Positions 1-22,087 of a stretch of 23,747 nt of DNA are shown here, in pieces. How positions within the stretch are numbered: position 1 is the first letter of the stretch; each line of letters starts with the position of its first letter. The notes below the pieces were generated by a model. The model did no database searches. It was given only the letters and a program-made list of their open reading frames with translations, and had not been told where the DNA came from. Where the stretch lies: NCBI GenBank assembly GCA_048941285.1, contig JBHLNS010000048.1, positions 1 to 23,747 on the forward strand. The letters run 5' to 3'. Origin of the DNA: Promethearchaeota archaeon (GTDB lineage: Archaea > Asgardarchaeota > Lokiarchaeia > Sigyniarchaeales > SOKP01). Made by a program: the position numbers and the translations under genes.

Positions 1-668
1 CTTAATTTCTTTTGGAAATCTAAATTAATAAATGTATCAAAGATGTTATAAGCATGTCCAAGAAGGAGAAATCTAAGATCTCCCTTATTTTTTTTCTTCG
101 GTAAAGTAAACGGTCGATTATATTCTACAAGCCTTAAAGCATGATTTACAGGTGCTCCATCCTGTAAAAATTTATGATATTTATCAAAATATTTTTGTGC
201 TTCTCTATAAGCATTCAGTGATTCATTTTGATTTCTGCCTAATTCTTTACCTAATTCAATAGCAGAAGTAGCAATTGGAAACTCTTTTACATTCACTTCA
301 AAATTTAAAATTTTGGGGACTTCTGGCAATATTTTGATAACATCTGGCAAGGATAAAGATTTTGGGCAGAAAAAGGCTTCTTTAACTTCTGCTACATATC
401 TAGGTACAAAAATATAATCTAAATCTGGATGGTCGCGGACTAATTTTAATACTTGACCATAATAAATTTTAACAGGAATACAGAGCTCTCCAAATCCGTG
501 AGTTACACCCTCTTCAACGATTTTTTTATTAGTCGGAGGACTTAAAATGATTTCAGCATCTAATTCCTCAAGAAGCTTTTTCCAAAAGGGAAAATATCTA
601 TAAAAATGAAGCGCTCGTGGAATACCAACTTTTATCTTTTTCTTGCTCGATTGTTCACTCGATTCCAT
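1..668 (-). CDS. Partial gene running off the left edge: CoA-substrate enzyme activase-related / DUF2229-like protein (2-hydroxyacyl-CoA dehydratase activator-associated family)
   Basis: Not in the ORF track. ATG at 668 has GAGG upstream and opens MESSEQSSKKKIKVGIPRALHFYRYFPFWKKLLEELDAEIILSPPTNKKIVEEG...ELCIPVKIYYG...FFCPK...LLLGHAYN, with no stop before position 1. The VGIPRAL, C-x-PVK and CPK motifs are typical of this family. It starts 20 bp after the upstream stop. Confidence 0.8.
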   Translation of the reverse strand, partial: MESSEQSSKKKIKVGIPRALHFYRYFPFWKKLLEELDAEIILSPPTNKKIVEEGVTHGFGELCIPVKIYYGQVLKLVRDHPDLDYIFVPRYVAEVKEAFFCPKSLSLPDVIKILPEVPKILNFEVNVKEFPIATSAIELGKELGRNQNESLNAYREAQKYFDKYHKFLQDGAPVNHALRLVEYNRPFTLPKKKNKGDLRFLLLGHAYNIFDTFINLDFQKKL

Positions 669-688
669 TTATTTAATTCCTCAGTACC

Positions 689-2365
689 TTATGCGTCCGG
701 TGTATCATAAAGAAGCAGATCTCTAATTTGGTCCATCAAATTTGCCGTTAATCTTTTAAGTTCGTCATAATCTGGCATAGGCTTATCCCAATATTTTTGA
801 TGCTCCATAAATGGCGGACCAGCTTTTAAAATCTGACCTTTGTAAAATTTCAGCATTTTAGCATGCTTTGGATAAGTTCTTTCGGTACCTGTTATTCCTA
901 TGGGAATTATAGGTACTTTTGTTTGAATTGCTAATCGCATGGGACCCGTATGGCCCTCTAAAAGTTGACCATTTCCCAGATTGGTAGTCCCTTCTGGATA
1001 TGTGCACACACATTCTCCTTGTTCAAGAAGCTCTCTTGCATATGTAAACGCATCCACGTCGTGCATTCCTCGTTTTAATGGAAATGCATGATGATTTCGT
1101 ACCCATGCATTAACGAGTGGTATTTTAAAGAGTGATTGTTTTGACATCTGCCACATTATTCTTCTTGGTTCATGATGAATTAGAGTTGTAGCCAGTATGA
1201 GTACATCCCATTCAGAATTATGACTTGGGCAAAGAAGAACGCCGCCTTCTTTTGGTACATATTTATCAAAATCTATAGCTTTGTATGGCATCATTAGATC
1301 AGACCAACCACTTACTAATTCACCTGAGAATGCCATCACAGTTTTTTGAAATTGTCTTCGCACTCCAAACTCTTCTAAGGTTTTTAAAAGAGCATACCAT
1401 GAATCATCTATGAGCCTAAGAAATCCTTTTCCTTGATCTTTCAAATAAGTCATGAAATCAAATTTTGGTTTTTTCTCAACTTCTTCAGGTGAACCTATGG
1501 AAAGTGCTTCATTTTCTTCCCTTCCATAAATATTTTCCCGTAATTCCCATACAATACTCCTTAAATCATCAGTTAATCTACGAATATCATCATATGATAC
1601 AGTGTTAATATCATAGTCATGATAATAAATTGGATCACCTACTCGAACTATTACTTGAGTTGGTTTCATTACCAGATTGCCTTTTGGTAATGCATTTCTA
1701 GATCCAATAACAGCCATAGGAACTATTGGAACATCCATTTCAATAGCAAGCCGAACTGCACCAGTTTTAAATTCTCCTAATTCTCCATCATAACTCCTAG
1801 TTCCCTCTGGAAATATTCCAACCCACTCTCCGCCTTGGATAATGTTTTTAGCTTTTTCCCAACCCAATTCTGGATTTTCCCTGTCTATTTTAAAAGCTCC
1901 AAGGTTATTGAAGAGAGTTCTTACTATTGGTGTCTTAAAATTGTCAAGTTTGCTCATGTAGCGAATTCTACGATGGCAAGCCGCTCCATAGAAGAATGGG
2001 TCAATATGTGATTCGTGATTTCCCACCAAAATACCTGGGCCATATTCTGGGAACATATTCCCTTTAGGATACTCCGCTTTAAAATTCCAGAATGTCCGGA
2101 CAGCCCATTTAATATAAATATATGCCGCCCACCATTGTAAACGTCCTTCTATTTGCTTTAAATCTAATCGTTTAATTATATAACGATATAAATCATTCAG
2201 AGGATCGATAGGGTTATATTTTAAAATTTTATACAACCAATTTTGGTGGCGTTTCTCTAACCTTAGTTCTTCTTGCATTTTTTCTTCGATATGCTTTTTG
2301 AGATCTAACTCTCGAGCAGTTTCGGCTCCAGTTTTACTTACTTTTTCTAATTCCATAATTTTCAC
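689..2365 (-). CDS. Tandem two-domain lysophospholipid / 1-acyl-glycerol-3-phosphate acyltransferase (2x PlsC-like)
   Basis: Two complete motif sets: NHESHID...FPEGTRS...IVP and SHNSEWD...YPEGTT...IIPIG (HX4D and PEGT blocks). The real start may be the ATG at 2356. Confidence 0.9.
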   Translation of the reverse strand: MKIMELEKVSKTGAETARELDLKKHIEEKMQEELRLEKRHQNWLYKILKYNPIDPLNDLYRYIIKRLDLKQIEGRLQWWAAYIYIKWAVRTFWNFKAEYPKGNMFPEYGPGILVGNHESHIDPFFYGAACHRRIRYMSKLDNFKTPIVRTLFNNLGAFKIDRENPELGWEKAKNIIQGGEWVGIFPEGTRSYDGELGEFKTGAVRLAIEMDVPIVPMAVIGSRNALPKGNLVMKPTQVIVRVGDPIYYHDYDINTVSYDDIRRLTDDLRSIVWELRENIYGREENEALSIGSPEEVEKKPKFDFMTYLKDQGKGFLRLIDDSWYALLKTLEEFGVRRQFQKTVMAFSGELVSGWSDLMMPYKAIDFDKYVPKEGGVLLCPSHNSEWDVLILATTLIHHEPRRIMWQMSKQSLFKIPLVNAWVRNHHAFPLKRGMHDVDAFTYARELLEQGECVCTYPEGTTNLGNGQLLEGHTGPMRLAIQTKVPIIPIGITGTERTYPKHAKMLKFYKGQILKAGPPFMEHQKYWDKPMPDYDELKRLTANLMDQIRDLLLYDTPDA

Positions 2366-2601: not shown

Positions 2602-3336
2602 CTAATTTTTTAATATGCTTAATAAATCATCTAAAGACTTAATTAAAAGGTCAGGTTTATATTCAGTTAAAATTTCAGATTTACTTACTCCACTTGCTAC
2701 CGCAATAGTCCAAAAACCTGCTTCTCGACCAGCTGTGATATCTGAAGGCATATCACCTATCATCAAAAATTCATCTCTGCGGCGTTTCTCATAATTTTCT
2801 AAAGTTGGCTGAAGTGCCATTGGATCCGGCTTTTGAATAGGTATTTTATCGCTTCCATAAACTCCTTTAAATGCTTTCTCAAATCCTACTTTTTCTAAAT
2901 GTTCGATTATTGTCTTTGTCTTATTATGAGAAACAATAAATAAATCAGAATTTTTGCCTAATTCTTTTAATAAGGATTTCACAGCTGGGAAAAAAAGAGC
3001 TTCCTTAGCATACTCAAGATATTTAGCAAAAATTTTAACAGCTATTTGCAATTTTTTAAAATAAGTTAATCCTTCAAGTGCACTTATATGATTAAATATA
3101 TTGTAAGATTCAAGCAAGACCTTAGGAAGTGGATATCCCTGAATGGTTTCCAATAAAGCACCGATTTCTTGTATTGTAGTTTCCATATCTATAGTTAAAT
3201 TTTTTTCTCCTAAAATTTCTTCAATTGATTTTTCAATAATTTCTCTGATATCAAGTAAAGTTCCATCAAAATCGAATATTATCCCACGGAGTGAACCTTT
3301 TTGAAGTAATTCTATTAATTGCTTATCTCTACTCAT
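2602..3336 (-). CDS. HAD-superfamily phosphatase (phosphoglycolate-phosphatase-like, subfamily IA)
   Basis: Motif I IIFDFDGTL, motif II VSH, motif III KPDP, motif IV IGDMPSDITAG. Confidence 0.9.
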   Translation of the reverse strand: MSRDKQLIELLQKGSLRGIIFDFDGTLLDIREIIEKSIEEILGEKNLTIDMETTIQEIGALLETIQGYPLPKVLLESYNIFNHISALEGLTYFKKLQIAVKIFAKYLEYAKEALFFPAVKSLLKELGKNSDLFIVSHNKTKTIIEHLEKVGFEKAFKGVYGSDKIPIQKPDPMALQPTLENYEKRRRDEFLMIGDMPSDITAGREAGFWTIAVASGVSKSEILTEYKPDLLIKSLDDLLSILKN

Positions 3337-3382: not shown

Positions 3383-4066
3383 TCAAGAAAGGAGTTGTTT
3401 TATAGCACCAAAAGCTTGATAAATTTCACATATAAGGAGTGTATAAATTATTACTTTTTGCCCTGTAACATAAATAAATAGAACAGCTGAGATATTATTA
3501 TTTGGAATAAAAAATAAAGCTATATAATATATTATCAAAACACCTGATGTAATTGCACATACAATTGCATAAGATTTTGGATAATCCTTATTCTGAAATA
3601 GTACAATTGTGAATAAACTTATAGATATAAAAATAGATCCAAATCCAAGTAGCACAAAAAAATCATGCCAAAAACCAAGAATATCTGAGGGTGTGAAAGC
3701 AATACCGATAAAAAAAATTCCAGTAAGAATGCCAAAAAGGGAACTAATGATACTTATAAATTTTATTCTTCTAGTCTTTTTAAAAAAACTAGGTAAAGCC
3801 ACATAAAATGGGATTTGAAATATTCCCCATAAATTTAATGTTATCATAAATAGAAGAGAAGAAATTATATTTGGATTTCCCGAATGTGCAGAAATCCGCC
3901 CTAAATCGCTAAAATAGTTATACCAGAAGATGTAACCTTGAGTAAAAGGATCAGCATAAGTCCCTCCTCCATAATAAAACATAGCAATACTCGTCAAGAT
4001 AATGAATTGACTACAGCCAAAAATGTTTAAAATAAAAGCCCAGAATTTCCAATTTCTTTGGTGCAT
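3383..4066 (-). CDS. Multi-pass membrane protein, DUF998-like
   Basis: About 6 hydrophobic segments, NYFSDLG motif after the first helix, and G..P.D....H in the middle (GIAFTPSDILGFWH). Confidence 0.65.
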   Translation of the reverse strand: MHQRNWKFWAFILNIFGCSQFIILTSIAMFYYGGGTYADPFTQGYIFWYNYFSDLGRISAHSGNPNIISSLLFMITLNLWGIFQIPFYVALPSFFKKTRRIKFISIISSLFGILTGIFFIGIAFTPSDILGFWHDFFVLLGFGSIFISISLFTIVLFQNKDYPKSYAIVCAITSGVLIIYYIALFFIPNNNISAVLFIYVTGQKVIIYTLLICEIYQAFGAIKQLLS

Positions 4067-4189: not shown

Positions 4190-4957
4190 GTGGTTTTTAT
4201 GAGCGAATTTTTTATATTTAACATTTTAATGATCACTTTTAGTTTATCTTCAATAATAGTTTTTATTCTTTTATTCCAGATTCCTGCTGGGTATGGGCAA
4301 CATATTAATAAAAAATGGGGGCCAAGTATTAATAATAGACTTGGATGGGTTTTGATGGAAATTCCTACAGTTATTATTTATTTAATTTACTATCTCATTG
4401 GAGATCGAAAGCTAGAAATAGTTCCACTCATTTTTACGGCAATATGGATGCTACATTACATTCACCGTACATTTATCTTCCCATTATTAATTCGTGGTAA
4501 TCAATCAATGCCTATAACAATTATTTTGATGGGAATTATATTTAATGGAGTCAATTCTTACTTACAAGCAAGATGGATTTATAAATTTTCATTTTCATAT
4601 GCCATATCTTGGATATTAAACCCGCTTTTTATAACGGGAATTTTAATATTCTTTATTGGTTTTTTTATTAATCTCCATTCCGATTATCTAATCCGTAATT
4701 TAAGAAAACCCGGAGAAACTGAATACAAAATCCCATACGGTGGAATGTTTAAATATGTTAGTTGTCCTAGTTATTTGGGTGAAATAACAGAATGGACTGG
4801 TTGGGCAATTATGACATGGTCATTTCCAGGACTTGTATTCGCTATATGGACGTTTGCAAATTTAGCACCTAGAGCCCGAACTAATCATTTATGGTATATT
4901 AGAACATTTCCAGAATATCCCAATAATCGAAAAGCACTGATTCCCTATCTTTTTTAG
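4190..4957 (+). CDS. 3-oxo-5-alpha-steroid 4-dehydrogenase (SRD5A/DET2-like membrane enone reductase)
   Basis: YGQH, GWVLMEIP, HYIHRTFIFP, NLHSDYLIRNLRKPGETEYKIPYGGMFKYVSCPSYLGEITEWTGWA and ANLAPRA match SRD5A1/2 signatures. The start may be the ATG at 4199. Confidence 0.9.
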   Translation: MVFMSEFFIFNILMITFSLSSIIVFILLFQIPAGYGQHINKKWGPSINNRLGWVLMEIPTVIIYLIYYLIGDRKLEIVPLIFTAIWMLHYIHRTFIFPLLIRGNQSMPITIILMGIIFNGVNSYLQARWIYKFSFSYAISWILNPLFITGILIFFIGFFINLHSDYLIRNLRKPGETEYKIPYGGMFKYVSCPSYLGEITEWTGWAIMTWSFPGLVFAIWTFANLAPRARTNHLWYIRTFPEYPNNRKALIPYLF

Positions 4958-5305: not shown

Positions 5306-7666
5306 CTAAATTAATGTATGTTCTGTTCTTTTAATAATCTCATCTTGTAAAGTTGAGCCTAGATTCACAAAATAATCACTATACCCTGCAACTCTTACAA
5401 TTAAATTTCTATATTTTTCTGGATTTTTTTGTGCTGCTCGGAGTGTGTCTGCTGAAACTACATTAAATTGAATGTGATGACCATTCATTTCAAAGTATGC
5501 TCTAATTAAGTGCCCAAGTTTATTAATTCTATTCTCATCTGAAAGAAAATGCGGAGTAAATTTTTGATTTAATAATGTTCCACCAGTTCGTAGGTGATCT
5601 ATTTTTCCAGCTGATTTAATAACAGCAGTTGGGCCTTTAATATCCATTCCTTGAACTGGAGAAATTCCCTCTGATAATGGCATATATGCTTTTCTCCCAT
5701 CTGGAGTAGCTCCTGTTACTTGACCAAAATAAACATGTACTGTTGTAGGAAGTAGATTAATACGATGTACACCGCCTTTTGTATTAGGGCGGTTATCGAT
5801 TGCATCATAAACAATTTCAAAAACTTGAGTAGTTATTGAATCAGCATAATCATCATCATTTCCATATTTAGGAGTTTTATAGAGTAATTTCTGGTGAATA
5901 GTATCGTATCCTTCAAAATTCTTATCTAAAACTTTTAACATATCTTCCATAGAGATAATCTTCTTATCGAATACATTATATTTAATAGAAGTCAAGCAAT
6001 CAGTAATACTACCTATTCCTACTATTTGTATATAAGAAGTGTTATATTTTGCACCACCGTCATTATAATCCTTCCCATTCTTGATACAATCATCAATCAA
6101 TATCGATAAGAATGGTGCGGGATTTTGTGCCCAAATACGCTCGATAATCTGATTTCCCTTTATTTTAACATCTACAAAATGCTTAATTTGCTTGTTGAAT
6201 GCTTCAAATAAGTCATTAAACGTTCTAAATGTCACAGGATCACCAGTTTTCAATCCAATCTGCTTTTTAGTCAGAGGATCAAAACCATTATTATGTGTTA
6301 TTTCAAGAATTTTTACTAAATTAAAATAACCTGTTAAAATATAGGCTTCTTTTCCAAAAGCTCCGGATTCAACGCAACCACTTGCTCCCCCATTTCGAGC
6401 ATCTATTATAGATTTTCCTTGTCTCGTTAATTCATGAATAATTGCATCAGTATTAAAAATTGAAGGTTGTCCAAAACCAGTTTTCACAATTTCAAGAGCT
6501 CGTCTTAAAAACTTGTCTGGGGTCTTTTTACTAATTTGGACATTACTACTTGGTTGTAATATACGCATTCCCTCAATTACATCTAGTAGCATGTAAGACA
6601 TTTCATTAACTCCGTCAGATCCATCCTCCTTAAGGCCACCAATATTAATATTGCAAAAATCAGTATAAGTATTGCTTTCTTCTGCTGTAACTCCAACTTT
6701 TGGAGGTGCTGGTTGATTATTAAACTTGATCCAAAATGCTTGAAGTAGCTCATACGCCTCTTCTTTTGTTAAGATTCCCTTTTCAATATCATTTTTGTAG
6801 AATCGATAGAGATGCTGATCTAAGCGTCCAGGATTGAAAGAATCCCACGTATTATACTCAGTTATGACACCTAAATGAATAAACCAATAATGTTGAAGTG
6901 CTTCCCAAAATGTTCTAGGTGCTTTTCTGGGGACATTAGAACAAATAGCAGATATTTTTTCTAACTCTTTTCTTCTGTCTGGGTTTGATTCTATACTTGC
7001 TAATCGATTAGCCTCTTTAGCATAGCGATCAGCAAAATTAATTATTGCATCAGCGGCAATATTCATTGCTCTTAATTGCTCTCTCTTATTATAGGCAGTG
7101 GGATCATTGTAAAAATCTAAAATTTCTATGCTTTCTTTTATTTCTTGCTTGAAATCTAAAAATCCTTTTTCCCATATATTTTTCCCAGCAACAGTATGTC
7201 CAGGTGCTCTCTGTTCCATAAATTCTGTGAAAATACCTGCTTCATAAGCGGTAATCCACTCATTATCAACTTGAGAGAAGATTTTATCCCGAATAGATCT
7301 TCCTTTCCAAAAAGGTATTATAATCTCTTTTGTTTTTTGTTTTACTTCTTCAGATACTTTAAAGGAAATTTTTTCACGGGTATTTAGGATGTCTAAATCT
7401 TGCAAACTGTGACAACAAACTTCTGGATATGTAGGAGTTGCCTTAGGTTCTGGACCGCGTTCCCCTACAATTAGCTCTCCTTCATTAATACATATCTTTT
7501 TATTTTGTATTATATATTTAAATGCTTTAGCTCTGGCAATTGGAGCAGAAAATTTATGAGCCGCACCAGTTTTATAAAAATCTGTTATTAAAAGAGCTCG
7601 TTCTAATGAAAAGTAAGGAATAGCATTGCGACTTTGATTTCGTAATTTCCTTATTCGTTCATTCAT
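5306..7666 (-). CDS. hypD: Glycyl radical enzyme, trans-4-hydroxy-L-proline dehydratase (HypD type)
   Basis: Gly loop IVRVAGYS and Cys loop GCVE. HypD-specific stretches PTYPEVCCH, FTEFMEQRAPGHTV, WDSFNPGRLDQHL, KFNNQPAPPKVG...ESNTYTDF, AYILTGY and LPTT closely match the Clostridioides HypD sequence as I recall it. Confidence 0.88.
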   Translation of the reverse strand: MNERIRKLRNQSRNAIPYFSLERALLITDFYKTGAAHKFSAPIARAKAFKYIIQNKKICINEGELIVGERGPEPKATPTYPEVCCHSLQDLDILNTREKISFKVSEEVKQKTKEIIIPFWKGRSIRDKIFSQVDNEWITAYEAGIFTEFMEQRAPGHTVAGKNIWEKGFLDFKQEIKESIEILDFYNDPTAYNKREQLRAMNIAADAIINFADRYAKEANRLASIESNPDRRKELEKISAICSNVPRKAPRTFWEALQHYWFIHLGVITEYNTWDSFNPGRLDQHLYRFYKNDIEKGILTKEEAYELLQAFWIKFNNQPAPPKVGVTAEESNTYTDFCNINIGGLKEDGSDGVNEMSYMLLDVIEGMRILQPSSNVQISKKTPDKFLRRALEIVKTGFGQPSIFNTDAIIHELTRQGKSIIDARNGGASGCVESGAFGKEAYILTGYFNLVKILEITHNNGFDPLTKKQIGLKTGDPVTFRTFNDLFEAFNKQIKHFVDVKIKGNQIIERIWAQNPAPFLSILIDDCIKNGKDYNDGGAKYNTSYIQIVGIGSITDCLTSIKYNVFDKKIISMEDMLKVLDKNFEGYDTIHQKLLYKTPKYGNDDDYADSITTQVFEIVYDAIDNRPNTKGGVHRINLLPTTVHVYFGQVTGATPDGRKAYMPLSEGISPVQGMDIKGPTAVIKSAGKIDHLRTGGTLLNQKFTPHFLSDENRINKLGHLIRAYFEMNGHHIQFNVVSADTLRAAQKNPEKYRNLIVRVAGYSDYFVNLGSTLQDEIIKRTEHTLI

Positions 7667-7744: not shown

Positions 7745-9430
7745 CTATTTTCTTCTTTTTTCAGCCTTTTTAGCTTCCTTGTCTCGGATCACTCGTCTTA
7801 GGACTTTACCTACTGCACTTTTTGGAAGCGAAGAAACAAATTTCACTACTCTTGGATATTTATATGCAGCCATATTTTTCTTCGACCAATCAATGATTTC
7901 TTGTTCAGTGATTTTTCCTTTAAATTCATTCCTAAGAATAATATGTACCATTATATTTTCACCCCTTTCTGGATCTTTAACACCGATTACAGCACATTCT
8001 TGAATTGCTGGATGTTCATACAAAATCTCTTCAATTTCTCTTGGATAAACACTATGCCCTTTATATTTTATCATGTCCTTAACTCGATCAATTAAGAAAA
8101 TATAGCCTTCTTCATCCAATTTTGCATAATCCCCTGTTCGTAGCCATTTATAACCCCCCGCTTTAAAAAATACCTTTTTATTCTCTTCAGGTCGATTATG
8201 ATACCCGAGCATAATCTGAGGGCCTGATGCAACTAATTCTCCAGGTTCTCCAATTGGTACAAAATTTAAATTTTCATCAATAATGCCAATTAAAGTACTA
8301 GCTATGGGAATACCACAACTTCCTAGCTTTTTCTTACTCCATGGAGGAGAATTTGAAACACAGACTGTTGATTCGCTTAAACCATATCCTTCTCCTAAAG
8401 GAAACCCAGTTTTCTGTTCCCATTCTTTTGCAACTTCAATTGGCATTGCAGATGCTCCTACATTGCAATATTTAAGATTAGAAAAATCAACATCTTTACT
8501 TAATGGGGAACCTAATATATTGATAAACATAGTAGGTACCCCAAGTATGAAATTAGCTTCTTTTTTTTTTATAGTCTCAATCATTCGAGGTATATCAAAT
8601 GTTGGAAAAATAATACCTTTCCCTCCATTTAAAGGACCTTGTAGAAGCTCACAAATTTGACCATATACATGATACCAGGGGAGCACAGAGAGTCCTATGA
8701 GATCTCCCTTAATATAATGTTCTTTCATATAATCTGAGATTTGTTTAATTTGTAAAAGATTTGATAGAGCATTATAATGAGATAGTTCAGCACCTTTTGG
8801 ATCACCTGTCGTACCACCTGTATATTGAATAATAGCAATATCTTTTTTTGGATCAATCTTTACCTTGAAATCTGCTATAGCTTTCGGGTTTGAATCCATC
8901 AATGTATTAAAATGGATTAATTTGTCTGTTTCGGGTATCTCAGGGACTTTTCCTTCTACATTCACTAAAATCACTTTTTCGAGATTTAATCGATTTTCAG
9001 CTTTCTTATATTCTCCATAAAATCTATCAATCATTATGAGATATTTTACGCCTGAATCTTCTATTTGATAAATCATCTCTCTTGCCACAAATAAGGGGCT
9101 AATTGCAGTTAAAGTAGCTCCAAGACCTAATGTGGCAAAATAGCAAATGCTAAAATGTGGGCAATTTGGTAACCAAAGTGCAACTACATCTCCCTTTTTT
9201 ATCCCTAATTTAAAGAGAGCGGTGGCAAATCTTCTTGTTAATTGATCCAATTCCCCATATGTGAATTCTCTTCCAAAGTAATCAAATGCTACTTTATGGG
9301 CATAATCCTTAGCGCCCGTTTCAAATACATCAATTAAAGATTTATCTTCAGGGATTTCTACTTCAATAGTCATCCCCTCGGGTAAATAATCCTTCCAAAT
9401 TCGATTTTTAATATAATCTGGTAGTTCCAT
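7745..9430 (-). CDS. fadD: Long-chain-fatty-acid--CoA ligase (FadD-like, ANL superfamily)
   Basis: YTGGTTGDPKG P-loop, GYGLSE, LRTGD, DRVKDMIKYKGHSVYPREIEE, LPKSAVGK. Confidence 0.9.
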   Translation of the reverse strand: MELPDYIKNRIWKDYLPEGMTIEVEIPEDKSLIDVFETGAKDYAHKVAFDYFGREFTYGELDQLTRRFATALFKLGIKKGDVVALWLPNCPHFSICYFATLGLGATLTAISPLFVAREMIYQIEDSGVKYLIMIDRFYGEYKKAENRLNLEKVILVNVEGKVPEIPETDKLIHFNTLMDSNPKAIADFKVKIDPKKDIAIIQYTGGTTGDPKGAELSHYNALSNLLQIKQISDYMKEHYIKGDLIGLSVLPWYHVYGQICELLQGPLNGGKGIIFPTFDIPRMIETIKKKEANFILGVPTMFINILGSPLSKDVDFSNLKYCNVGASAMPIEVAKEWEQKTGFPLGEGYGLSESTVCVSNSPPWSKKKLGSCGIPIASTLIGIIDENLNFVPIGEPGELVASGPQIMLGYHNRPEENKKVFFKAGGYKWLRTGDYAKLDEEGYIFLIDRVKDMIKYKGHSVYPREIEEILYEHPAIQECAVIGVKDPERGENIMVHIILRNEFKGKITEQEIIDWSKKNMAAYKYPRVVKFVSSLPKSAVGKVLRRVIRDKEAKKAEKRRK

Positions 9431-12045: not shown

Positions 12046-12837
12046 TTAAGGGTATTTTTCATTTAAACCCTTTATGAAATCCTCTAATTCTTTCATCGTA
12101 AATTTCTTTGGGTTATACGCAACCTTCCCACACTCATCTTCTAAATCCATGCACGATTTAATATAGGCCTTATTCATAATTCTTAGCATAGTCTTGGTGA
12201 AAAAGCTAAATTCTTTTTGATATTTTGCTATTTGCTTAGCGAAATTATAAGTTTCAGCTTCAAGTTCTTCAAGTGGAAAAATGCGGGTTGGAAAGTTAAT
12301 ATTCTTTAGTTCCTCTAAACCAATTTTATCAGTGGTAAAAAGTAAATTCTTAGCATATGTTAAACCAAATGCTAATAAAGGTAAAAGAGTTGCTCCAGTT
12401 TGAGGAAAAGCAGAAATAGCTAGTTCTGGTAATCTTAAATATAATTCTTCCTTAGATCTATCGGCAAAAACCTTCAAATCAGAAGCCAAAATTATCATAA
12501 ATCCAAACCCTATCGCGATACCTTGAACTTGAGTAATGATTGTTTTTTTCATAAGAATTATGGTTTCATTTACTTTTCTACCCCATTCAGTTATCTGTAC
12601 CACATTTTCAGGAGCACCCTGAATCTCTTTGAGATCATAGCCAGCAGAAAAAAACCTTTCGCCTTTACTCTTTATAATAATACATTCAACTTTCTCATCT
12701 TCATCTGCTTTTATCAAATTTTGATGTATTGCTTTTAGCATCGAAATATTACATGAATTTGCTTTATCTGGTCTATTTATTGTTAAGGTTGCAATACGCC
12801 CCTTTGCTTCATACAGGATAAAATCTTGATCACTCAT
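12046..12837 (-). CDS. Enoyl-CoA hydratase/isomerase (crotonase) family protein
   Basis: IATLTINRPDKANS, FFSAGYDLKE, VQGIAIGFG, ASDL, LPE. Confidence 0.88.
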   Translation of the reverse strand: MSDQDFILYEAKGRIATLTINRPDKANSCNISMLKAIHQNLIKADEDEKVECIIIKSKGERFFSAGYDLKEIQGAPENVVQITEWGRKVNETIILMKKTIITQVQGIAIGFGFMIILASDLKVFADRSKEELYLRLPELAISAFPQTGATLLPLLAFGLTYAKNLLFTTDKIGLEELKNINFPTRIFPLEELEAETYNFAKQIAKYQKEFSFFTKTMLRIMNKAYIKSCMDLEDECGKVAYNPKKFTMKELEDFIKGLNEKYP

Positions 12838-15666: not shown

Positions 15667-16248
15667 ATGACGGATGATAAGGGAAAGGGAGACATTGTCT
15701 TTCAAGGAAGAACTGAGATGATATTTAAGATAATAGTCATCGGAGACCCTGCGGTCGGAAAAACAAGCCTTTTAACAAATTTCTGTGGTGAAAAATTTAC
15801 CTATGAATATGTACCGACAGTAGGAGTAAATATTACTAAGGAACCAGTCACAATTAAGGATGATATGGGTAAAGATGCCACTGTAAATCTTATGATTTGG
15901 GACATTGCAGGACAACCACAATTTTACATGTTACATCGACCTTATTTTAATGGGGCTGATGGAATGATGTTAGTTTATGATATAACTCGCTCAAGCTCAT
16001 TTTCTAATATAAACAATTGGTGGAGTACTAGCGTTAAGTATGGGTTATCATCGATCCCTCGTATCCTAATAGGGAATAAGGTTGATTTAAAAGACGAAAG
16101 AAAGATTATATTACCTATGGCTGAACATTTAAGTGAAAAATTAGCTGCACCTTTTTTTGAAACTTCAACATTAACGGGAGAAAATGTAAAATTAATCTTT
16201 CAGAAAATAGCTGAACTCACTTTACGTTCAAAACTAGAAGAAAAATAA
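15667..16248 (+). CDS. Rab-like small GTPase (Ras superfamily)
   Basis: G1 GDPAVGKT, G2 YVPTVG, G3 IWDIAGQ, G4 GNKVD, G5 FETST, and a Rab-like YFNGADGMMLVYDIT. No C-terminal cysteines. Confidence 0.93.
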   Translation: MTDDKGKGDIVFQGRTEMIFKIIVIGDPAVGKTSLLTNFCGEKFTYEYVPTVGVNITKEPVTIKDDMGKDATVNLMIWDIAGQPQFYMLHRPYFNGADGMMLVYDITRSSSFSNINNWWSTSVKYGLSSIPRILIGNKVDLKDERKIILPMAEHLSEKLAAPFFETSTLTGENVKLIFQKIAELTLRSKLEEK

Positions 16249-18028: not shown

Positions 18029-18907
18029 GTGATAACAATTATACAATATATAAATATTCTTACGAAAGACGGTAAATCGTTACTCTTTAGGAATTATGGG
18101 ACATCTGATGTAGATAGGGATCTTTTAGCTGGATTTTTAAGTGCTTTTTCAGGATTTATGAAGGAAATTAGCCAGAGTGAAATTAAAAACACACAAACCG
18201 AGGATTTTAAGTACTTTTATACTATCATTGATAATATCATAATAGTTTTATGTGCTGATCTAGACGAGGACGACACCCAAATAAATTCTAAAATATTGAG
18301 TATTAGAACTAAATTTTTAGAAAAATATGGTAACATTCTTGAAAATGGGAGTTGGGCTGGAAACCGAAGTATTTTTACTGAATTTGAAAAGGAATTAGAC
18401 GATATTATTTTGGGAGCAATTAAAGTATCTATTATAGGATTTGGAGGGGTAGGGAAAACCACTTTGACAAAATTGATCTGTGGAAAGGATGTAGATCTTG
18501 AATACGTGCCAACAATCACAGCCGATATTGCTTCCTATGAGGGTGATGAATTTGAGAGAAGTATTACTCTTTGGGATTTTGCGGGTCAAGCTCAGTTCAG
18601 GTCCCTTTGGCAAAGTCTTCTACAAGGTACAGACATAACTCTTCTCGTAACAGATTCCACATATGAAAATATAATTAACTCAAAAGAGATAATTCATGAA
18701 ATATTAGATAAATTCTATCAAGATAAACTCGTAATTGGTATCGCAAACAAACAAGATTTAGCAAATAGGCTAACTCCACAATTCTGTGAAAAATATCTTT
18801 CTAGTGAAAAACGAGTAATTAAAACTCATGGGATGATTGCCATCGAACCCATATATCGAGAAAAGATATTAGAAATATTAAAAAAAGCAATAAAAGAAAT
18901 TAGTTGA
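18029..18907 (+). CDS. Longin-like domain fused to a small GTPase (Arf/Rab-like)
   Basis: N-terminal IQYINILTKDGKSLLFRNY...DLLAGFLSAFSGFMKEI...IIIVLCAD...FLEKY fits the longin pattern. C-terminal G1 GFGGVGKT, G2 YVPTI, G3 WDFAGQ, G4 NKQD. Confidence 0.85.
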   Translation: MITIIQYINILTKDGKSLLFRNYGTSDVDRDLLAGFLSAFSGFMKEISQSEIKNTQTEDFKYFYTIIDNIIIVLCADLDEDDTQINSKILSIRTKFLEKYGNILENGSWAGNRSIFTEFEKELDDIILGAIKVSIIGFGGVGKTTLTKLICGKDVDLEYVPTITADIASYEGDEFERSITLWDFAGQAQFRSLWQSLLQGTDITLLVTDSTYENIINSKEIIHEILDKFYQDKLVIGIANKQDLANRLTPQFCEKYLSSEKRVIKTHGMIAIEPIYREKILEILKKAIKEIS

Positions 18908-20827: not shown

Positions 20828-22087
20828 ATGTTTCAAGAGAAAATTATTGATGATAAAATTCTTGAAAAGATGTCATTGGAAAATGTATTTAAAATCTTTA
20901 ACGACAACGTTTTTCCAATGTTAAATGAAGAGGAACGAGAGTATTGTCAAGGTTTACAAGATTTTTGCTTAGATCTGCATCCTAGAATTGATAAATCAAA
21001 GGATGTATATAGTCTACTCCCCGAACTTGGAAAAAGAGGATATATACAAAGAATAAACCCATGGAAAGACTTTAAACCGTATGGAATGAAAAAAGAAATA
21101 CTTTTAGGAACTCATATCTCGTTATTAGACCCACAATTAGAATTAGCACGAGTAGCAAGTGGGATTTTATGTGGTAATCCTACTTTTCATTATTATGAAC
21201 ATGGTGGTGATTCTGATATTCCCTCAAAAGTGCAAGATGAGCTATTATCAGGACAAAAAATTGGTTGTATTGGCATCACAGAACCTGAAAGAGGTTCAGA
21301 TGCTGTAAATATGACAACCAAGTGTACCAAAACTGGTGATGGGGTGATTTATAATGGAGAAAAAGTGTATACTACCAATGGGGCTGTTGCAGATTATTTT
21401 GCATGTTATGGGGTCTATGATGAAGCAAATCCAAGAGATACGATGGTACAAGCTATTATTGCACGTGAATTTGGTGTAAAAACTGAGAGGTTAAAAATAA
21501 ATTCTGTTCCAAGGGTCCAAATATCACACACAATATTAGACAATGTATTAGTTCCAAAAGAGTACATACTCGCAGATGATGGACTTGGATATAAAAGACT
21601 TTTTGAAGGTTTAGTTCCTGAAAGGCTTTCAATTATGGGAAGTGGCGTAGGAATTTGTTGGGCAGGAGTAATTTATGGTATTATTTATACAAATTTAAGG
21701 AAACAATTTGGCAAACCTGTAATCAGGTATCAAGGTGTAGGTTATGGTTTAGCAGATTTATTGACAAAATCTAATGCGGCAACAGCTTTAGCTCTACAAG
21801 CTGCCACTGTGTATGACGAGAGAATTTTATTCAGTGAGAAACCTTCAAAAGAAGCAGAAAAATGGGTTGCATCAATTTCCTCTCAAGGAAAATACTATTT
21901 AGCTAAGCTTACGCATGAAGTCTGTTATGAAGTTCAACAGCATATGGGAGGAGTAAGTGTTACAGATAATACGCCTATTGATGAGTATTGTGATGTAAGT
22001 AAAATTGAAGAAGTTATTGGTGGAGCAAGGAATATTCAGTTACTTCTTATACAATCCCAAATTCAAAGATATACTGGATTACTATAA
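20828..22087 (+). CDS. Acyl-CoA dehydrogenase
   Basis: IGCIGITEPERGSDA, YNGEKVYTTNG, RKQFGKPV..YQGV, QHMGGVS. Confidence 0.92.
   Translation: MFQEKIIDDKILEKMSLENVFKIFNDNVFPMLNEEEREYCQGLQDFCLDLHPRIDKSKDVYSLLPELGKRGYIQRINPWKDFKPYGMKKEILLGTHISLLDPQLELARVASGILCGNPTFHYYEHGGDSDIPSKVQDELLSGQKIGCIGITEPERGSDAVNMTTKCTKTGDGVIYNGEKVYTTNGAVADYFACYGVYDEANPRDTMVQAIIAREFGVKTERLKINSVPRVQISHTILDNVLVPKEYILADDGLGYKRLFEGLVPERLSIMGSGVGICWAGVIYGIIYTNLRKQFGKPVIRYQGVGYGLADLLTKSNAATALALQAATVYDERILFSEKPSKEAEKWVASISSQGKYYLAKLTHEVCYEVQQHMGGVSVTDNTPIDEYCDVSKIEEVIGGARNIQLLLIQSQIQRYTGLL

What the first reader, a model, noticed from the sequence alone, without database searches (positions are those of the whole stretch)
689..2365. 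Two intact PlsC-type acyltransferase domains in one polypeptide in an archaeon
Seen: two full catalytic sets (NHESHID/FPEGTRS and HNSEWD/YPEGTT), clearly diverged from each other. Established: HX4D acyltransferases make fatty-acyl ester glycerolipids, whereas canonical archaeal lipids are isoprenoid ethers; single PlsC homologues are known in Lokiarchaeia. Inference: a tandem enzyme could do both acylations (GPAT then LPAAT) and replace the PlsB or PlsX/Y plus PlsC pair. That would give an Asgard archaeon a one-protein route to phosphatidic acid or hybrid ether/ester lipids, relevant to the lipid divide.
Basis: partly seen in the sequence, partly recalled or inferred. Interest (0 to 1): 0.75.

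Follow-up and report, generated by a model that had tools for sequence, protein, structure and literature searches.

The report
Fused double acyltransferase in Lokiarchaeia
An Asgard (Loki-type) archaeon encodes one protein made of two different bacterial-type lipid acyltransferase units, both apparently active, sitting beside genes related to bacterial enzymes that turn ester lipids into ether lipids, which gives a testable role for the puzzling "bacterial" lipid genes of these archaea.

Summary
ORF 689..2365 (-) encodes 558 aa with two PF01553 domains, each far above threshold on its own (103.4 and 91.7 bits, cut-off 23). Both His/Asp pairs are kept in 117 of 117 full-length orthologues.

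It is a fusion of two old paralogues, not a recent duplication or a bacterial import of a ready-made tandem. The halves are 32% identical. In a sister Lokiarchaeia family the two lie as adjacent separate genes in the same order. A formal AU test did not reject a single origin (p 0.096).

The C-domain lineage lacks the Arg of EGTR throughout and has lost the catalytic His in the split form.

The gene sits in a conserved cluster: a HAD phosphatase upstream (60 of 67 loci) and a DUF2229/HGD-D gene downstream (66 of 70). Further downstream lie BcrAD-type ATPases, the domain set of the bacterial ester-to-ether reductases Ger/PlsA-PlsR.

The genome also has PlsY. PlsX and ACP were not found.

My reading is a two-site, acyl-CoA-dependent glycerolipid acyltransferase feeding a Ger-like reductase. 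A self-sufficient phosphatidic acid synthase is possible but not specifically supported. No activity has been shown.

The parts
689..2365 (-). ORF of the fused double acyltransferase (558 aa from GTG; the likely true start is ATG at 2356, giving 555 aa)
1709..2059 (-). N-terminal PF01553 domain (ATa type, residues 103-219), canonical PlsC motifs
   Evidence: 103.4-105.4 bits
2000..2017 (-). Block I HX4D of domain 1 (HESHID, H117...D122)
   Evidence: H and D present in 117 of 117 sequences
1880..1903 (-). Block II of domain 1 (LGAFKIDR; F158, R162)
1793..1813 (-). Block III of domain 1 (FPEGTRS, with Arg190)
   Evidence: R190 in 116 of 117 sequences, 1 gap
1466..1516 (-). Low-confidence acidic linker between the two units (residues about 284-300)
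   Evidence: (pLDDT under 50)
893..1264 (-). C-terminal PF01553 domain (ATb type, residues about 368-491)
   Evidence: 91.7-93.4 bits
1205..1222 (-). Block I HX4D of domain 2 (HNSEWD, H382...D387)
   Evidence: present in 117 of 117 sequences
1070..1093 (-). Block II of domain 2 (HHAFPLKR; F428, R432)
980..1000 (-). Block III variant of domain 2 (YPEGTTN; Thr461 in place of the Arg of EGTR, followed by the lineage-specific N.GNG)
   Evidence: T461 and N462 in 117 of 117 sequences; shared with single-domain ATb proteins
3..668 (-). First 222 codons of the downstream DUF2229 gene, cut by the contig end. It starts 20 nt after the acyltransferase stop. In relatives it is a 352-aa DUF2229 + HGD-D protein.
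2602..3336 (-). Upstream HAD-family phosphatase gene (244 aa), conserved neighbour, separated by a 236-nt AT-rich spacer

Best explanation
The gene encodes a peripheral (non-transmembrane) protein made by end-to-end fusion of two anciently diverged PlsC-family acyltransferases.
- ATa is the N-terminal half, with the canonical HX4D, FxxR and FPEGTRS motifs.
- ATb is the C-terminal half, with HX4D and FxxR but YPEGTTN.GNG, so it lacks the Arg of EGTR.

It is the Lokiarchaeia 'PlsC'. The fused form is nearly universal in one family of that class. It belongs to a conserved gene cluster with a HAD phosphatase upstream and, downstream, a split ATP-driven iron-sulfur enzyme with the domain set of the bacterial ester-to-ether lipid reductases Ger/PlsA-PlsR.

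Proposed mechanism:
1. Each domain uses its His/Asp pair to transfer a fatty acyl group onto a hydroxyl of a glycerol-phosphate-based acceptor. The donor is most likely acyl-CoA, since no ACP was found and the genome has 18 AMP-binding ligase-type genes.
2. The N-domain acts like an LPA-type (sn-2) acyltransferase.
3. The C-domain acylates a second, different acceptor: glycerol phosphate itself, or a lyso or mono-ether lipid.
4. The ester lipid made is then the substrate of the neighbouring Ger-like reductase, giving alkyl or alk-1-enyl ether lipid.

Shown here: the architecture, motif conservation, fusion origin and synteny. Inferred: the substrates, that both sites work, the acyl donor, and the link to ether lipids.
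For: Architecture and family
- Two PF01553 domains, each well over threshold alone.
- The best solved relative of each half is T. maritima PlsC 5KYM: E 2.3e-14 with the whole protein as query (match in residues 91-249) and E 5.4e-8 with the C-terminal half. By fold, Foldseek gives E 1.2e-9 and TM on target 0.66-0.68; the model has pLDDT 76.1 and pTM 0.73.
- No 19-residue window reaches a transmembrane-like hydropathy (maximum 1.48).

Conservation
- Over the window protein plus 116 full-length homologues (61-88% identity, plus one at 50%), H117, D122, H382, D387, F158, F428, R432, T461 and N462 are kept in 117 of 117. R190 is kept in 116 of 117.

Fusion origin
- 37 of 40 other genomes of the family have the gene, 31 of them as one near-full-length frame.
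- Two of three genomes of the sister family examined carry ATa-like and ATb-like genes side by side in the same order, followed by DUF2229+HGD-D, DUF2229-like and BcrAD_BadFG genes.
- In domain trees the tandem N-domains group with ATa-type single genes, and the tandem C-domains with ATb-type single genes (SH-aLRT 93-100).
- The C-domain shares the EGT[TIL]N.GNG signature with ATb singles.
- A complex prediction of split ATa with ATb gave weak support only. The score was 0.39 against 0.01 for the best of 3 controls. The mark was reached by 116 of 157 solved complexes and 2 of 215 mismatches, but at 0.60 or under by only 18 of those 157 and by both mismatches that passed. The runs agree in at least 74% of contacts and the partner's pLDDT is at least 78.

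Cluster (80 loci kept of 106 relatives found)
- HAD on the same strand upstream in 60 of 67 loci with room (45 within 600 nt).
- The DUF2229/HGD-D gene downstream in 66 of 70 loci with room (59 within 400 nt).
- A BcrAD-type ATPase gene downstream in 23 of 32 loci with at least 5 kb.
- In locus L010 the downstream genes are DUF2229+HGD-D (352 aa) and 2x BcrAD_BadFG+DUF2229 (974 aa). This matches the BBD plus D/H architecture given for Ger, whose expression in anaerobic E. coli made 1-alkyl glycerol ethers. That paper also reports Ger homologues in Lokiarchaeota (PMC13159169, passages read).
- The genome's third PF01553 gene also lies next to DUF2229-like and BcrAD genes.

Donor
- PF00550 (ACP) gave 0 matches, PlsX gave 0, and AMP-binding gave 18 ORFs, one of them in this window.
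Against: - No activity, substrate or product has been measured for any member.
- The only lipid analysis I could read for a cultured Lokiarchaeon (MK-D1) found isoprenoid chains after ether cleavage. Its authors state that genome lacks ester-lipid genes (PMC7015854, passages). So the pathway, if real, is lineage-specific, minor or conditional.
- The C-domain lineage lacks the Arg of EGTR. Its split relatives in the sister family (2 of 2 clusters read) and P0151 have Phe in place of the catalytic His and no EGT. The cluster can therefore work there with one active site in this pair.
- The AU test did not reject holding the N- and C-domains together as one clade (lnL 49.2 lower, p 0.096; the group was named after seeing the tree).
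- Each half alone is below the NCBIfam TIGR00530 cut-off (93.5 and 67.8 against 102.95).
- In the window's own assembly the cluster is cut by the contig end, and no orthologue of the 974-aa ATPase protein was found (best 36% identity; genome 94% complete).
- Relatives of the neighbours (2-hydroxyacyl-CoA dehydratases, benzoyl-CoA reductases) act on CoA thioesters, not lipids.
- In three other Asgard families, 0 of 16 acyltransferase loci had DUF2229 or BcrAD genes within about 7 kb.
Confidence: 0.5

Rival explanations
1. The tandem is a self-sufficient phosphatidic acid synthase: one domain acts as the GPAT and the other as the LPAAT. It replaces PlsB or PlsX/PlsY plus PlsC and makes diacyl ester membrane lipid, independent of the neighbouring genes.
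For: - Both His/Asp pairs and both block II Arg residues are kept in 117 of 117 sequences (R162 in 115 of 117).
- PlsX and ACP were not found in a 94% complete genome, so the acyl-phosphate donor that PlsY needs has no evident source.
- GPATs and LPAATs share this fold; squash, algal and human GPATs are among the Foldseek matches.
Against: - A PlsY homologue is present (119.8 bits).
- No GPAT/PlsB model appeared among the NCBIfam matches at E up to 0.01.
- The ATb lineage lacks the EGTR Arg and is a pseudoenzyme in the split form.
- The tight, conserved linkage to Ger-like genes argues that the product goes on to further conversion.
- Cultured MK-D1 showed archaeal isoprenoid lipids only.
Confidence: 0.2
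2. One working site plus a partner domain. Only the canonical N-domain catalyses acylation. The C-domain is mainly a scaffold, lipid-binding or regulatory partner, a fused pseudo-heterodimer, as its relatives are in the sister family.
For: - Split ATb genes of the sister family and P0151 have lost His and EGT yet are retained next to ATa.
- The third acyltransferase paralogue of this genome, and domain 3 of the triple-domain proteins P0130 and P0271, also lack HX4D.
- There is weak predicted ATa-ATb association (0.39 against 0.01 for the best control, with the caveats stated there).
Against: In the fused form H382, D387, E458, T460 and T461 are kept in 117 of 117 sequences, and G459 in 116 of 117, across sequences down to 50% identity. 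That is hard to explain without catalysis.
Confidence: 0.15
3. A non-glycerolipid or non-lipid role. The acyltransferases act on another acceptor (an amino-lipid, a glycolipid as for PatA, or a hydroxy-acid or CoA-linked metabolite). They would work alongside a 2-hydroxyacyl-CoA-dehydratase-like fermentation enzyme rather than a lipid reductase.
For: - The neighbours' nearest solved relatives are activators of 2-hydroxyacyl-CoA dehydratases and benzoyl-CoA reductase subunits.
- The window is rich in acyl-CoA metabolism: a ligase-type gene, an enoyl-CoA hydratase and an acyl-CoA dehydrogenase.
- PatA and LpxM are among the fold matches, and there are weak OlsA hits.
Against: - The best sequence and fold matches of both halves are to PlsC, and the top NCBIfam model is TIGR00530.
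- In the papers I read (PMC13159169 and PMC9702350, passages), the enzymes of this BcrAD/DUF2229/HGD-D type with a shown function, Ger and PlsA/PlsR, act on lipid esters.
- A PlsY homologue elsewhere in the genome fits a glycerolipid context.
Confidence: 0.12

Closest known systems
[quoted passage not shown]
   Same: Both halves match it best by sequence (E 2.3e-14 with the whole protein as query, match in the N-half; E 5.4e-8 with the C-half) and by fold (Foldseek E 1.2e-9). Both halves have HX4D and block II. The N-domain has EGTR. Helices precede each catalytic core, and there is no transmembrane segment.
   Different: Two units sit in one chain, about 20% identical to PlsC. The C-unit has EGTT in place of EGTR. 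Each half alone is below the TIGR00530 cut-off. Activity is untested.
'PlsC homologues' of Lokiarchaeota reported from metagenomes (Villanueva 2017, as cited; Coleman 2019, PMC6431249; Manoharan 2019, PMC6737245)
   Same: Very probably the same gene family. P0066 from the LCGC14 sediment metagenome is 78% identical and 551 aa. Those papers discuss it as the sn-2 ester-forming enzyme (passages).
   Different: In the passages I read, none mentions two domains, a fusion, or linkage to Ger-like genes. Coleman 2019 built its tree on 57 positions and concluded the genes are unlikely to work in membrane synthesis.
Ger (glycerol ester reductase, T. maritima Tmari_0479) and PlsA/PlsR (anaerobic plasmalogen synthase, C. 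perfringens): for the neighbouring genes
   Same: The domain set is the same: 2x BcrAD_BadFG plus DUF2229, and DUF2229/HGD-D (compared with PMC13159169). Ger homologues have been reported in Lokiarchaeota.
   Different: Here the set is split over two or three genes and in two layouts: a 974-aa BBD protein, or separate D and B proteins. I did not test orthology to the characterised enzymes. Linkage to acyltransferase genes was not mentioned in the passages I read.
Other multi-domain PF01553 proteins: two-domain proteins of 434-470 aa (P0145, P0152, P0220; P0239 named Patescibacteria), three-domain Promethearchaeota/Helarchaeota proteins (P0130, P0271), and AMP-binding + carrier + 2x acyltransferase (P0266)
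   Same: More than one PF01553 domain per chain.
   Different: In P0145, P0152 and P0220 the two domains are each other's closest relatives (SH-aLRT 99, 99 and 83), so they are independent internal duplications. None groups with the Loki N/C pair. The third domain of the triple proteins lacks HX4D.

Membership tests
PlsC/AGPAT-type acyltransferases (Pfam PF01553) | Profile match over the gathering score, for each domain on its own | tested here: met
   103.4 and 91.7 bits against a cut-off of 23; 105.4 and 93.4 bits in the genome search
PlsC/AGPAT-type acyltransferases (Pfam PF01553) | Block I HX4D catalytic pair (motif definition recalled from the literature on PlsB/PlsC) | tested here: met
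   HESHID and HNSEWD; kept in 117 of 117 sequences for all four residues
PlsC/AGPAT-type acyltransferases (Pfam PF01553) | Block II F/G-x-x-R (recalled) | tested here: met
   LGAFKIDR and HHAFPLKR; R162 in 115 of 117 sequences, R432 in 117 of 117
PlsC/AGPAT-type acyltransferases (Pfam PF01553) | Block III EGTR (recalled) | tested here: inconclusive
   The N-domain has FPEGTRS (R190 in 116 of 117). The C-domain has YPEGTTN, with Thr in place of Arg in 117 of 117. So it is met by one domain and not by the other.
PlsC/AGPAT-type acyltransferases (Pfam PF01553) | PlsC-like fold | tested here: met
   Foldseek top hit 5KYM: E 1.2e-9, TM on target 0.66-0.68, model pLDDT 76.1
NCBIfam TIGR00530 (1-acylglycerol-3-phosphate O-acyltransferase domain) | Score over the curated cut-off of 102.95 | tested here: inconclusive
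   The whole protein scores 158.2, summed over two stretches. The halves alone score 93.5 and 67.8, both below the cut-off.
LPA acyltransferase (EC 2.3.1.51) / G3P acyltransferase (EC 2.3.1.15) activity | Acyl transfer to LPA or to glycerol phosphate | not testable with these tools
   Needs an enzyme assay or complementation
PlsB-type GPAT | Match to a PlsB/GPAT model | tested here: not met
   No PlsB/GPAT model appeared among NCBIfam matches at E up to 0.01 for the protein or its halves. GPAT structures appear only as weaker fold matches.
Ger / PlsA-PlsR ester-to-ether reductases (neighbouring genes) | Domain set: 2x PF01869 + PF09989, with PF09989/PF06050 modules (as given in PMC13159169) | tested here: met
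   L010: 974 aa with 2x BcrAD_BadFG + DUF2229; 352 aa with DUF2229 + HGD-D. In the window only the first 222 aa of the DUF2229 gene are present.
Ger / PlsA-PlsR ester-to-ether reductases (neighbouring genes) | Orthology to the characterised enzymes, and ester-to-ether activity | not tested
   I had no reference sequences to hand. The paper reports Ger homologues in Lokiarchaeota.

The most novel reading that the evidence does not exclude
One family of Lokiarchaeia runs a dedicated operon (phosphatase, fused double acyltransferase, Ger-like reductase) that builds fatty-acid-derived ester lipids and converts them to non-isoprenoid ether or mixed ester/ether glycerolipids. Close archaeal relatives of eukaryotes would then make 'bacterial-type' lipids by a route of their own. 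The fused enzyme would place both acyl chains, possibly on either glycerol-phosphate stereoisomer.
Probability: 0.3. Interest if true: 0.85.

Novelty: new variant of a known kind. Interest (0 to 1): 0.6.

Why it matters
The function of the PlsC and PlsY homologues of Lokiarchaeia is described as an open question in reviews of the lipid divide (PMC9385802 and PMC13400652, passages).

This work adds three things:
- The 'PlsC' is really two different acyltransferases fused.
- Both sites are conserved.
- The gene is locked into a cluster with ester-to-ether reductase-like genes.

Together these turn a vague gene presence into a concrete pathway hypothesis with a defined set of 4-6 genes. The genes can be expressed together in anaerobic E. 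coli, as was done for Ger. The hypothesis also says what lipid chemists should look for in Lokiarchaeum cultures and sediments: non-isoprenoid alkyl or alkenyl glycerols, not only diacyl lipids.

If the hypothesis is wrong, the fused protein is still a clean case of paralogue fusion, with pseudoenzyme decay in the unfused lineage.

Tried and rejected
- **Recent internal duplication.** Disfavoured by the trees and by synteny, but the AU test did not reject N+C as one clade (p 0.096). The 'careful' tree search did not finish in time, so quick trees were used.
- **Import of a ready-made bacterial tandem.** Rejected. The other tandems are independent duplications and do not group with this one. 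Named nearest single-domain relatives are Lokiarchaeota, Promethearchaeota or 'archaeon' MAGs.
- **The rest of the cluster in the window's own genome.** The contig ends inside the DUF2229 gene. The best match to the 974-aa ATPase protein is 36% identical, on another contig. So the full cluster is shown only in relatives.
- **Depth of the linkage.** In three other Asgard families, 0 of 16 best-hit acyltransferase loci had DUF2229 or BcrAD genes within about 7 kb (tblastn E 1e-5).
- **Expression.** Four sediment metatranscriptome runs of one study hold short contigs (151-255 nt, mostly 95-99% identical). They cover parts of the acyltransferase gene, the DUF2229 gene and the end of the HAD gene. 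Contigs from RNA libraries do not prove transcription, and other parts had no cover. This is presence only.
- **G1P dehydrogenase and GpsA.** Only weak Rossmann or Fe-ADH matches (37.5 and 40.6 bits), so undecided.
- **The extra C-terminal half of PlsY.** The protein atlas gave scores of 0.88 and a CTP_transf_1 label on 14% of one cluster. This is a lead only. The first try failed because the machine was busy.
- **Earlier scan notes.** Searches by place and by words found nothing.
- **Literature.** Searches for a described tandem or fused PlsC, or a PlsC-Ger cluster in Asgard archaea, found none in the library searched. Subscription papers such as Villanueva 2017 and Jackson 2021, and all supplements, were not seen and may bear on this.
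Full report
**Observation**

The minus-strand ORF 689..2365 is open for 558 codons from a GTG. Homologues begin at its fourth codon (MELE...), and an ATG lies there. The real start is therefore probably 2356, giving 555 aa.

Pfam finds PF01553 twice. Scanned separately, the N-half scores 103.4 bits (residues 103-219) and the C-half 91.7 bits, against a cut-off of 23. The whole-genome search places the two matches at 1709..2059 and 893..1264.

- HESHID at 2000..2017
- FPEGTRS at 1793..1813
- HNSEWD at 1205..1222
- YPEGTTN at 980..1000

The halves are 32% identical over 180 aa.

**Who has it**

A search of 5.8 billion proteins gave 578 hits. The best 120 are almost all 550-562 aa and 61-88% identical. 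Where they are named, they come from Promethearchaeota/Lokiarchaeota-type MAGs. They include a 551-aa protein of the LCGC14 marine sediment metagenome (P0066, 78% identity).

Among 201 genomes sampled from the phylum, 61 had some match:
- In the window's own family, 37 of 40 other genomes had it.
- In 31 of these it is one near-full-length frame, two of them with an in-frame TAA.
- In the other six it is broken over contig ends or frames.

At 50% clustering, only one other full-length representative exists among 1.84 billion proteins (P0121, 561 aa). The fused form is thus close to universal in one Lokiarchaeia family and, with these queries, was not seen outside it.

**Origin**

In two of the three sampled genomes of the sister family, the query's N-half and C-half match two adjacent, separate genes on one strand and in the same order (344+274 aa and 314+260 aa). 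These are followed by DUF2229+HGD-D, DUF2229-like and BcrAD_BadFG genes.

I built a domain tree of 186 rows with IQ-TREE (quick search, LG+G4). Before building it I dropped:
- near-duplicate cluster members (P0272-P0276);
- P0140 and P0122;
- some close A1 members;
- envelopes covering fewer than 140 profile positions.

In this tree the tandem N-domains group with the ATa-type single genes, and the tandem C-domains with the ATb-type single genes (SH-aLRT 93-100). The two groups lie far apart. An 82-row tree gave the same picture.

The named nearest singles are Lokiarchaeota, Promethearchaeota or 'archaeon' MAG proteins. The C-domain shares a one-residue insertion and the EGT[TIL]N.GNG signature with ATb singles, while the N-domain shares FPEGTRS.-DG with ATa singles.

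Against this, an AU test did not reject a tree holding all N- and C-domains together (lnL 49.2 lower, p 0.096; the group was named after seeing the tree). I read the gene as a fusion of two old neighbouring paralogues. Fission in the sister family is not excluded, because no root was inferred.

Other proteins with two PF01553 domains exist: P0145, P0152, P0220, and P0239, which is named Patescibacteria. In the first three the two domains are each other's sisters, so these are independent duplications.

**Are both sites alive?**

I aligned the window protein with 116 full-length homologues; of the 121 available, I dropped 5 shorter than 530 aa. Conservation is as follows:
- H117, D122, H382, D387, F158, F428, R432, Y456-E458, T460, T461 and N462 are kept in 117 of 117.
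- R190 is kept in 116 of 117 (one gap).
- G459 is kept in 116 of 117.

This is what purifying selection on two active sites looks like.

The ATb lineage is peculiar, however. None of its members has the Arg of EGTR. The split ATb genes of the sister family (2 of 2 read) and P0151 have Phe in place of the catalytic His and have lost EGT. The genome's third PF01553 gene, and the third domain of the triple-domain proteins P0130 and P0271, lack HX4D altogether.

Members of this paralogue set can therefore persist as non-catalytic partners. A complex prediction for split ATa with ATb gave weak support only:
- The score was 0.39, against 0.01 for the best of 3 controls.
- The mark was reached by 116 of 157 solved complexes and 2 of 215 mismatches. 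At 0.60 or under it was reached by only 18 of the 157 and by both mismatches that passed.
- The runs agree in at least 74% of contacts, and the partner's pLDDT is at least 78.

**Structure**

The AlphaFold model, built on a 22-row alignment, has mean pLDDT 76.1 and pTM 0.73. It shows a disordered N-terminus and a disordered linker at residues 284-300. Each catalytic core is preceded by long helices.

Foldseek's best match is T. maritima PlsC 5KYM (E 1.2e-9, TM on target 0.66-0.68). PatA, LpxM and plant, algal and human GPATs follow. By sequence, 5KYM is the only solved relative found, both with the whole protein as query (the match lies in the N-half) and with the C-half alone.

No 19-residue window reaches transmembrane hydropathy; the maximum is 1.48. 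This fits a peripheral, interfacial enzyme.

**Neighbourhood**

I examined 80 loci, the best of 106 relatives found in species-representative genomes:
- A HAD phosphatase gene lies upstream on the same strand in 60 of 67 loci with at least 1.2 kb of room, and within 600 nt in 45.
- A DUF2229/HGD-D gene lies downstream in 66 of 70 loci with at least 0.9 kb of room, and within 400 nt in 59.
- A BcrAD-type ATPase gene follows on the same strand in 23 of 32 loci with at least 5 kb downstream.

The ATPase comes in two layouts: a 974-aa protein (2x BcrAD_BadFG + DUF2229) in the window's closest relatives, or separate DUF2229-like and BcrAD genes as in the sister family.

In the window the acyltransferase stop and the DUF2229 start are 20 nt apart. 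The contig ends 222 codons into that gene. The 974-aa gene was not found in this 94%-complete assembly. The genome's third, motif-less acyltransferase lies directly after DUF2229-like and BcrAD genes on another contig.

The ATPase domains resemble activators of 2-hydroxyacyl-CoA dehydratases and benzoyl-CoA reductase subunits.

This domain set (BBD plus D/H modules) is the one described for Ger, the glycerol ester reductase of T. maritima. Ger made 1-alkyl glycerol ethers when expressed in anaerobic E. coli and is a modified form of the plasmalogen synthase PlsA. The same paper notes Ger homologues in Lokiarchaeota (PMC13159169, passages; PMC9702350, passages). In the passages I read, no linkage to acyltransferase genes is mentioned.

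The linkage did not extend to three other Asgard families, where 0 of 16 loci had it.

**Genome context**

Searches of the window's own genome gave:
- one PlsY homologue, unusually long at 404 aa;
- one GGGPS, as expected for archaeal lipids;
- 18 AMP-binding ligase-type ORFs, one in this window;
- no PlsX and no PP-binding/ACP match, although the genome is 94% complete, so absence is not proven.

Acyl-CoA is therefore the likeliest donor.

A recent paper reports that bacterial PlsY and PlsC accept both glycerol-phosphate stereoisomers. It notes that the Asgard plsY/plsC genes are unexplained (PMC13400652, title, abstract and one passage).

The cultured MK-D1 gave only isoprenoid chains after ether cleavage, and its genome was said to lack ester-lipid genes (PMC7015854, passages).

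**Reading**

The best-supported account is a two-site, acyl-CoA-dependent glycerolipid acyltransferase whose ester products feed a Ger-like reductase. The N-domain is the canonical LPAAT-like unit. The C-domain acts on a different acceptor.

PlsX and ACP were not found, and both sites are conserved. Nothing here favours it specifically, and PlsY is present. The rivals are a catalytic-plus-scaffold pair and a non-glycerolipid role.

All functional steps are inferred. Only the anatomy, conservation, origin and synteny are shown.

**Novelty**

PlsC homologues in Lokiarchaeota have been discussed in print since at least 2019, citing Villanueva 2017. Ger homologues there were noted in 2022. Databases already name this protein a lysophospholipid acyltransferase.

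In the library searched, I found no description of the two-domain fusion, of its split or pseudoenzyme relatives, or of the acyltransferase-Ger-like cluster. Subscription papers and supplements were not seen.

Three earlier notes of this scan, on other genomes, reached the same reading. They agree with mine but are not independent evidence.

Noticed in passing
L089:844-2058 (-) = G000 contig C72: The genome's only PlsY homologue is 404 aa. A PlsY domain occupies residues 15-186, followed by about 200 further hydrophobic residues with no Pfam match. The protein atlas gave only a weak lead to CTP_transf_1 (score 0.88, on 14% of one cluster).
   Followed up: partly
L092:5314-8493 (+) = G000 contig C59: A second small cluster: a DUF2229-like gene (396 aa), BcrAD_BadFG (353 aa), then a 233-aa PF01553 protein that lacks HX4D and EGT, so it is probably a pseudo-acyltransferase. 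Its relatives form the third domain of the triple-domain proteins P0130 and P0271.
   Followed up: partly
L093:4428-5252 (-) and L094:3979-4761 (-): In the sister family the separate ATb gene has Phe in place of the catalytic His (NFQS.LD) and YPEMRPN/YPELNPN in place of PEGT. It is still retained between ATa and the DUF2229 gene.
   Followed up: partly
window 5306..7666 (-): A 786-aa glycyl radical enzyme scores 1312.7 bits on the NCBIfam trans-4-hydroxy-L-proline dehydratase model (cut-off 1100). This would be an amino-acid fermentation enzyme in an Asgard archaeon. I did not look for its activase.
   Followed up: no
window 4190..4957 (+) and 3383..4066 (-): A steroid-5-alpha-reductase-family membrane protein (PF02544, 173 bits) and a DUF998-like membrane protein lie just upstream of the HAD gene. 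Both recur near the cluster in many relatives.
   Followed up: no
window 7745..9430 (-), 12046..12837 (-), 20828..22087 (+): An AMP-binding ligase-type gene, an enoyl-CoA hydratase and an acyl-CoA dehydrogenase-like gene lie in the same window. These are acyl-CoA metabolism genes near the acyltransferase.
   Followed up: no
window 15667..16248 (+), 18029..18907 (+): Two Ras/Roc/Arf-family small GTPase genes, as is typical of Asgard genomes.
   Followed up: no
G099:C206:2418-4085 and G135:C65:27057-28709: Two orthologues of the fused gene carry a single in-frame TAA within an otherwise full-length match. This could be a sequencing error, a pseudogene or recoding.
   Followed up: no
L010:5357-7771 (+) and L010:14017-15429 (+): An 804-aa ORF with no Pfam match is inserted between HAD and the acyltransferase in some relatives. 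A 470-aa ORF with no Pfam match follows the 974-aa ATPase gene; it was seen in 9 of 29 loci with room.
   Followed up: no
G031:C6:1580-2338: A genome of another family of the phylum (76% complete) holds only a C-half fragment, 71% identical to the query. This may be a binning error rather than true presence.
   Followed up: no
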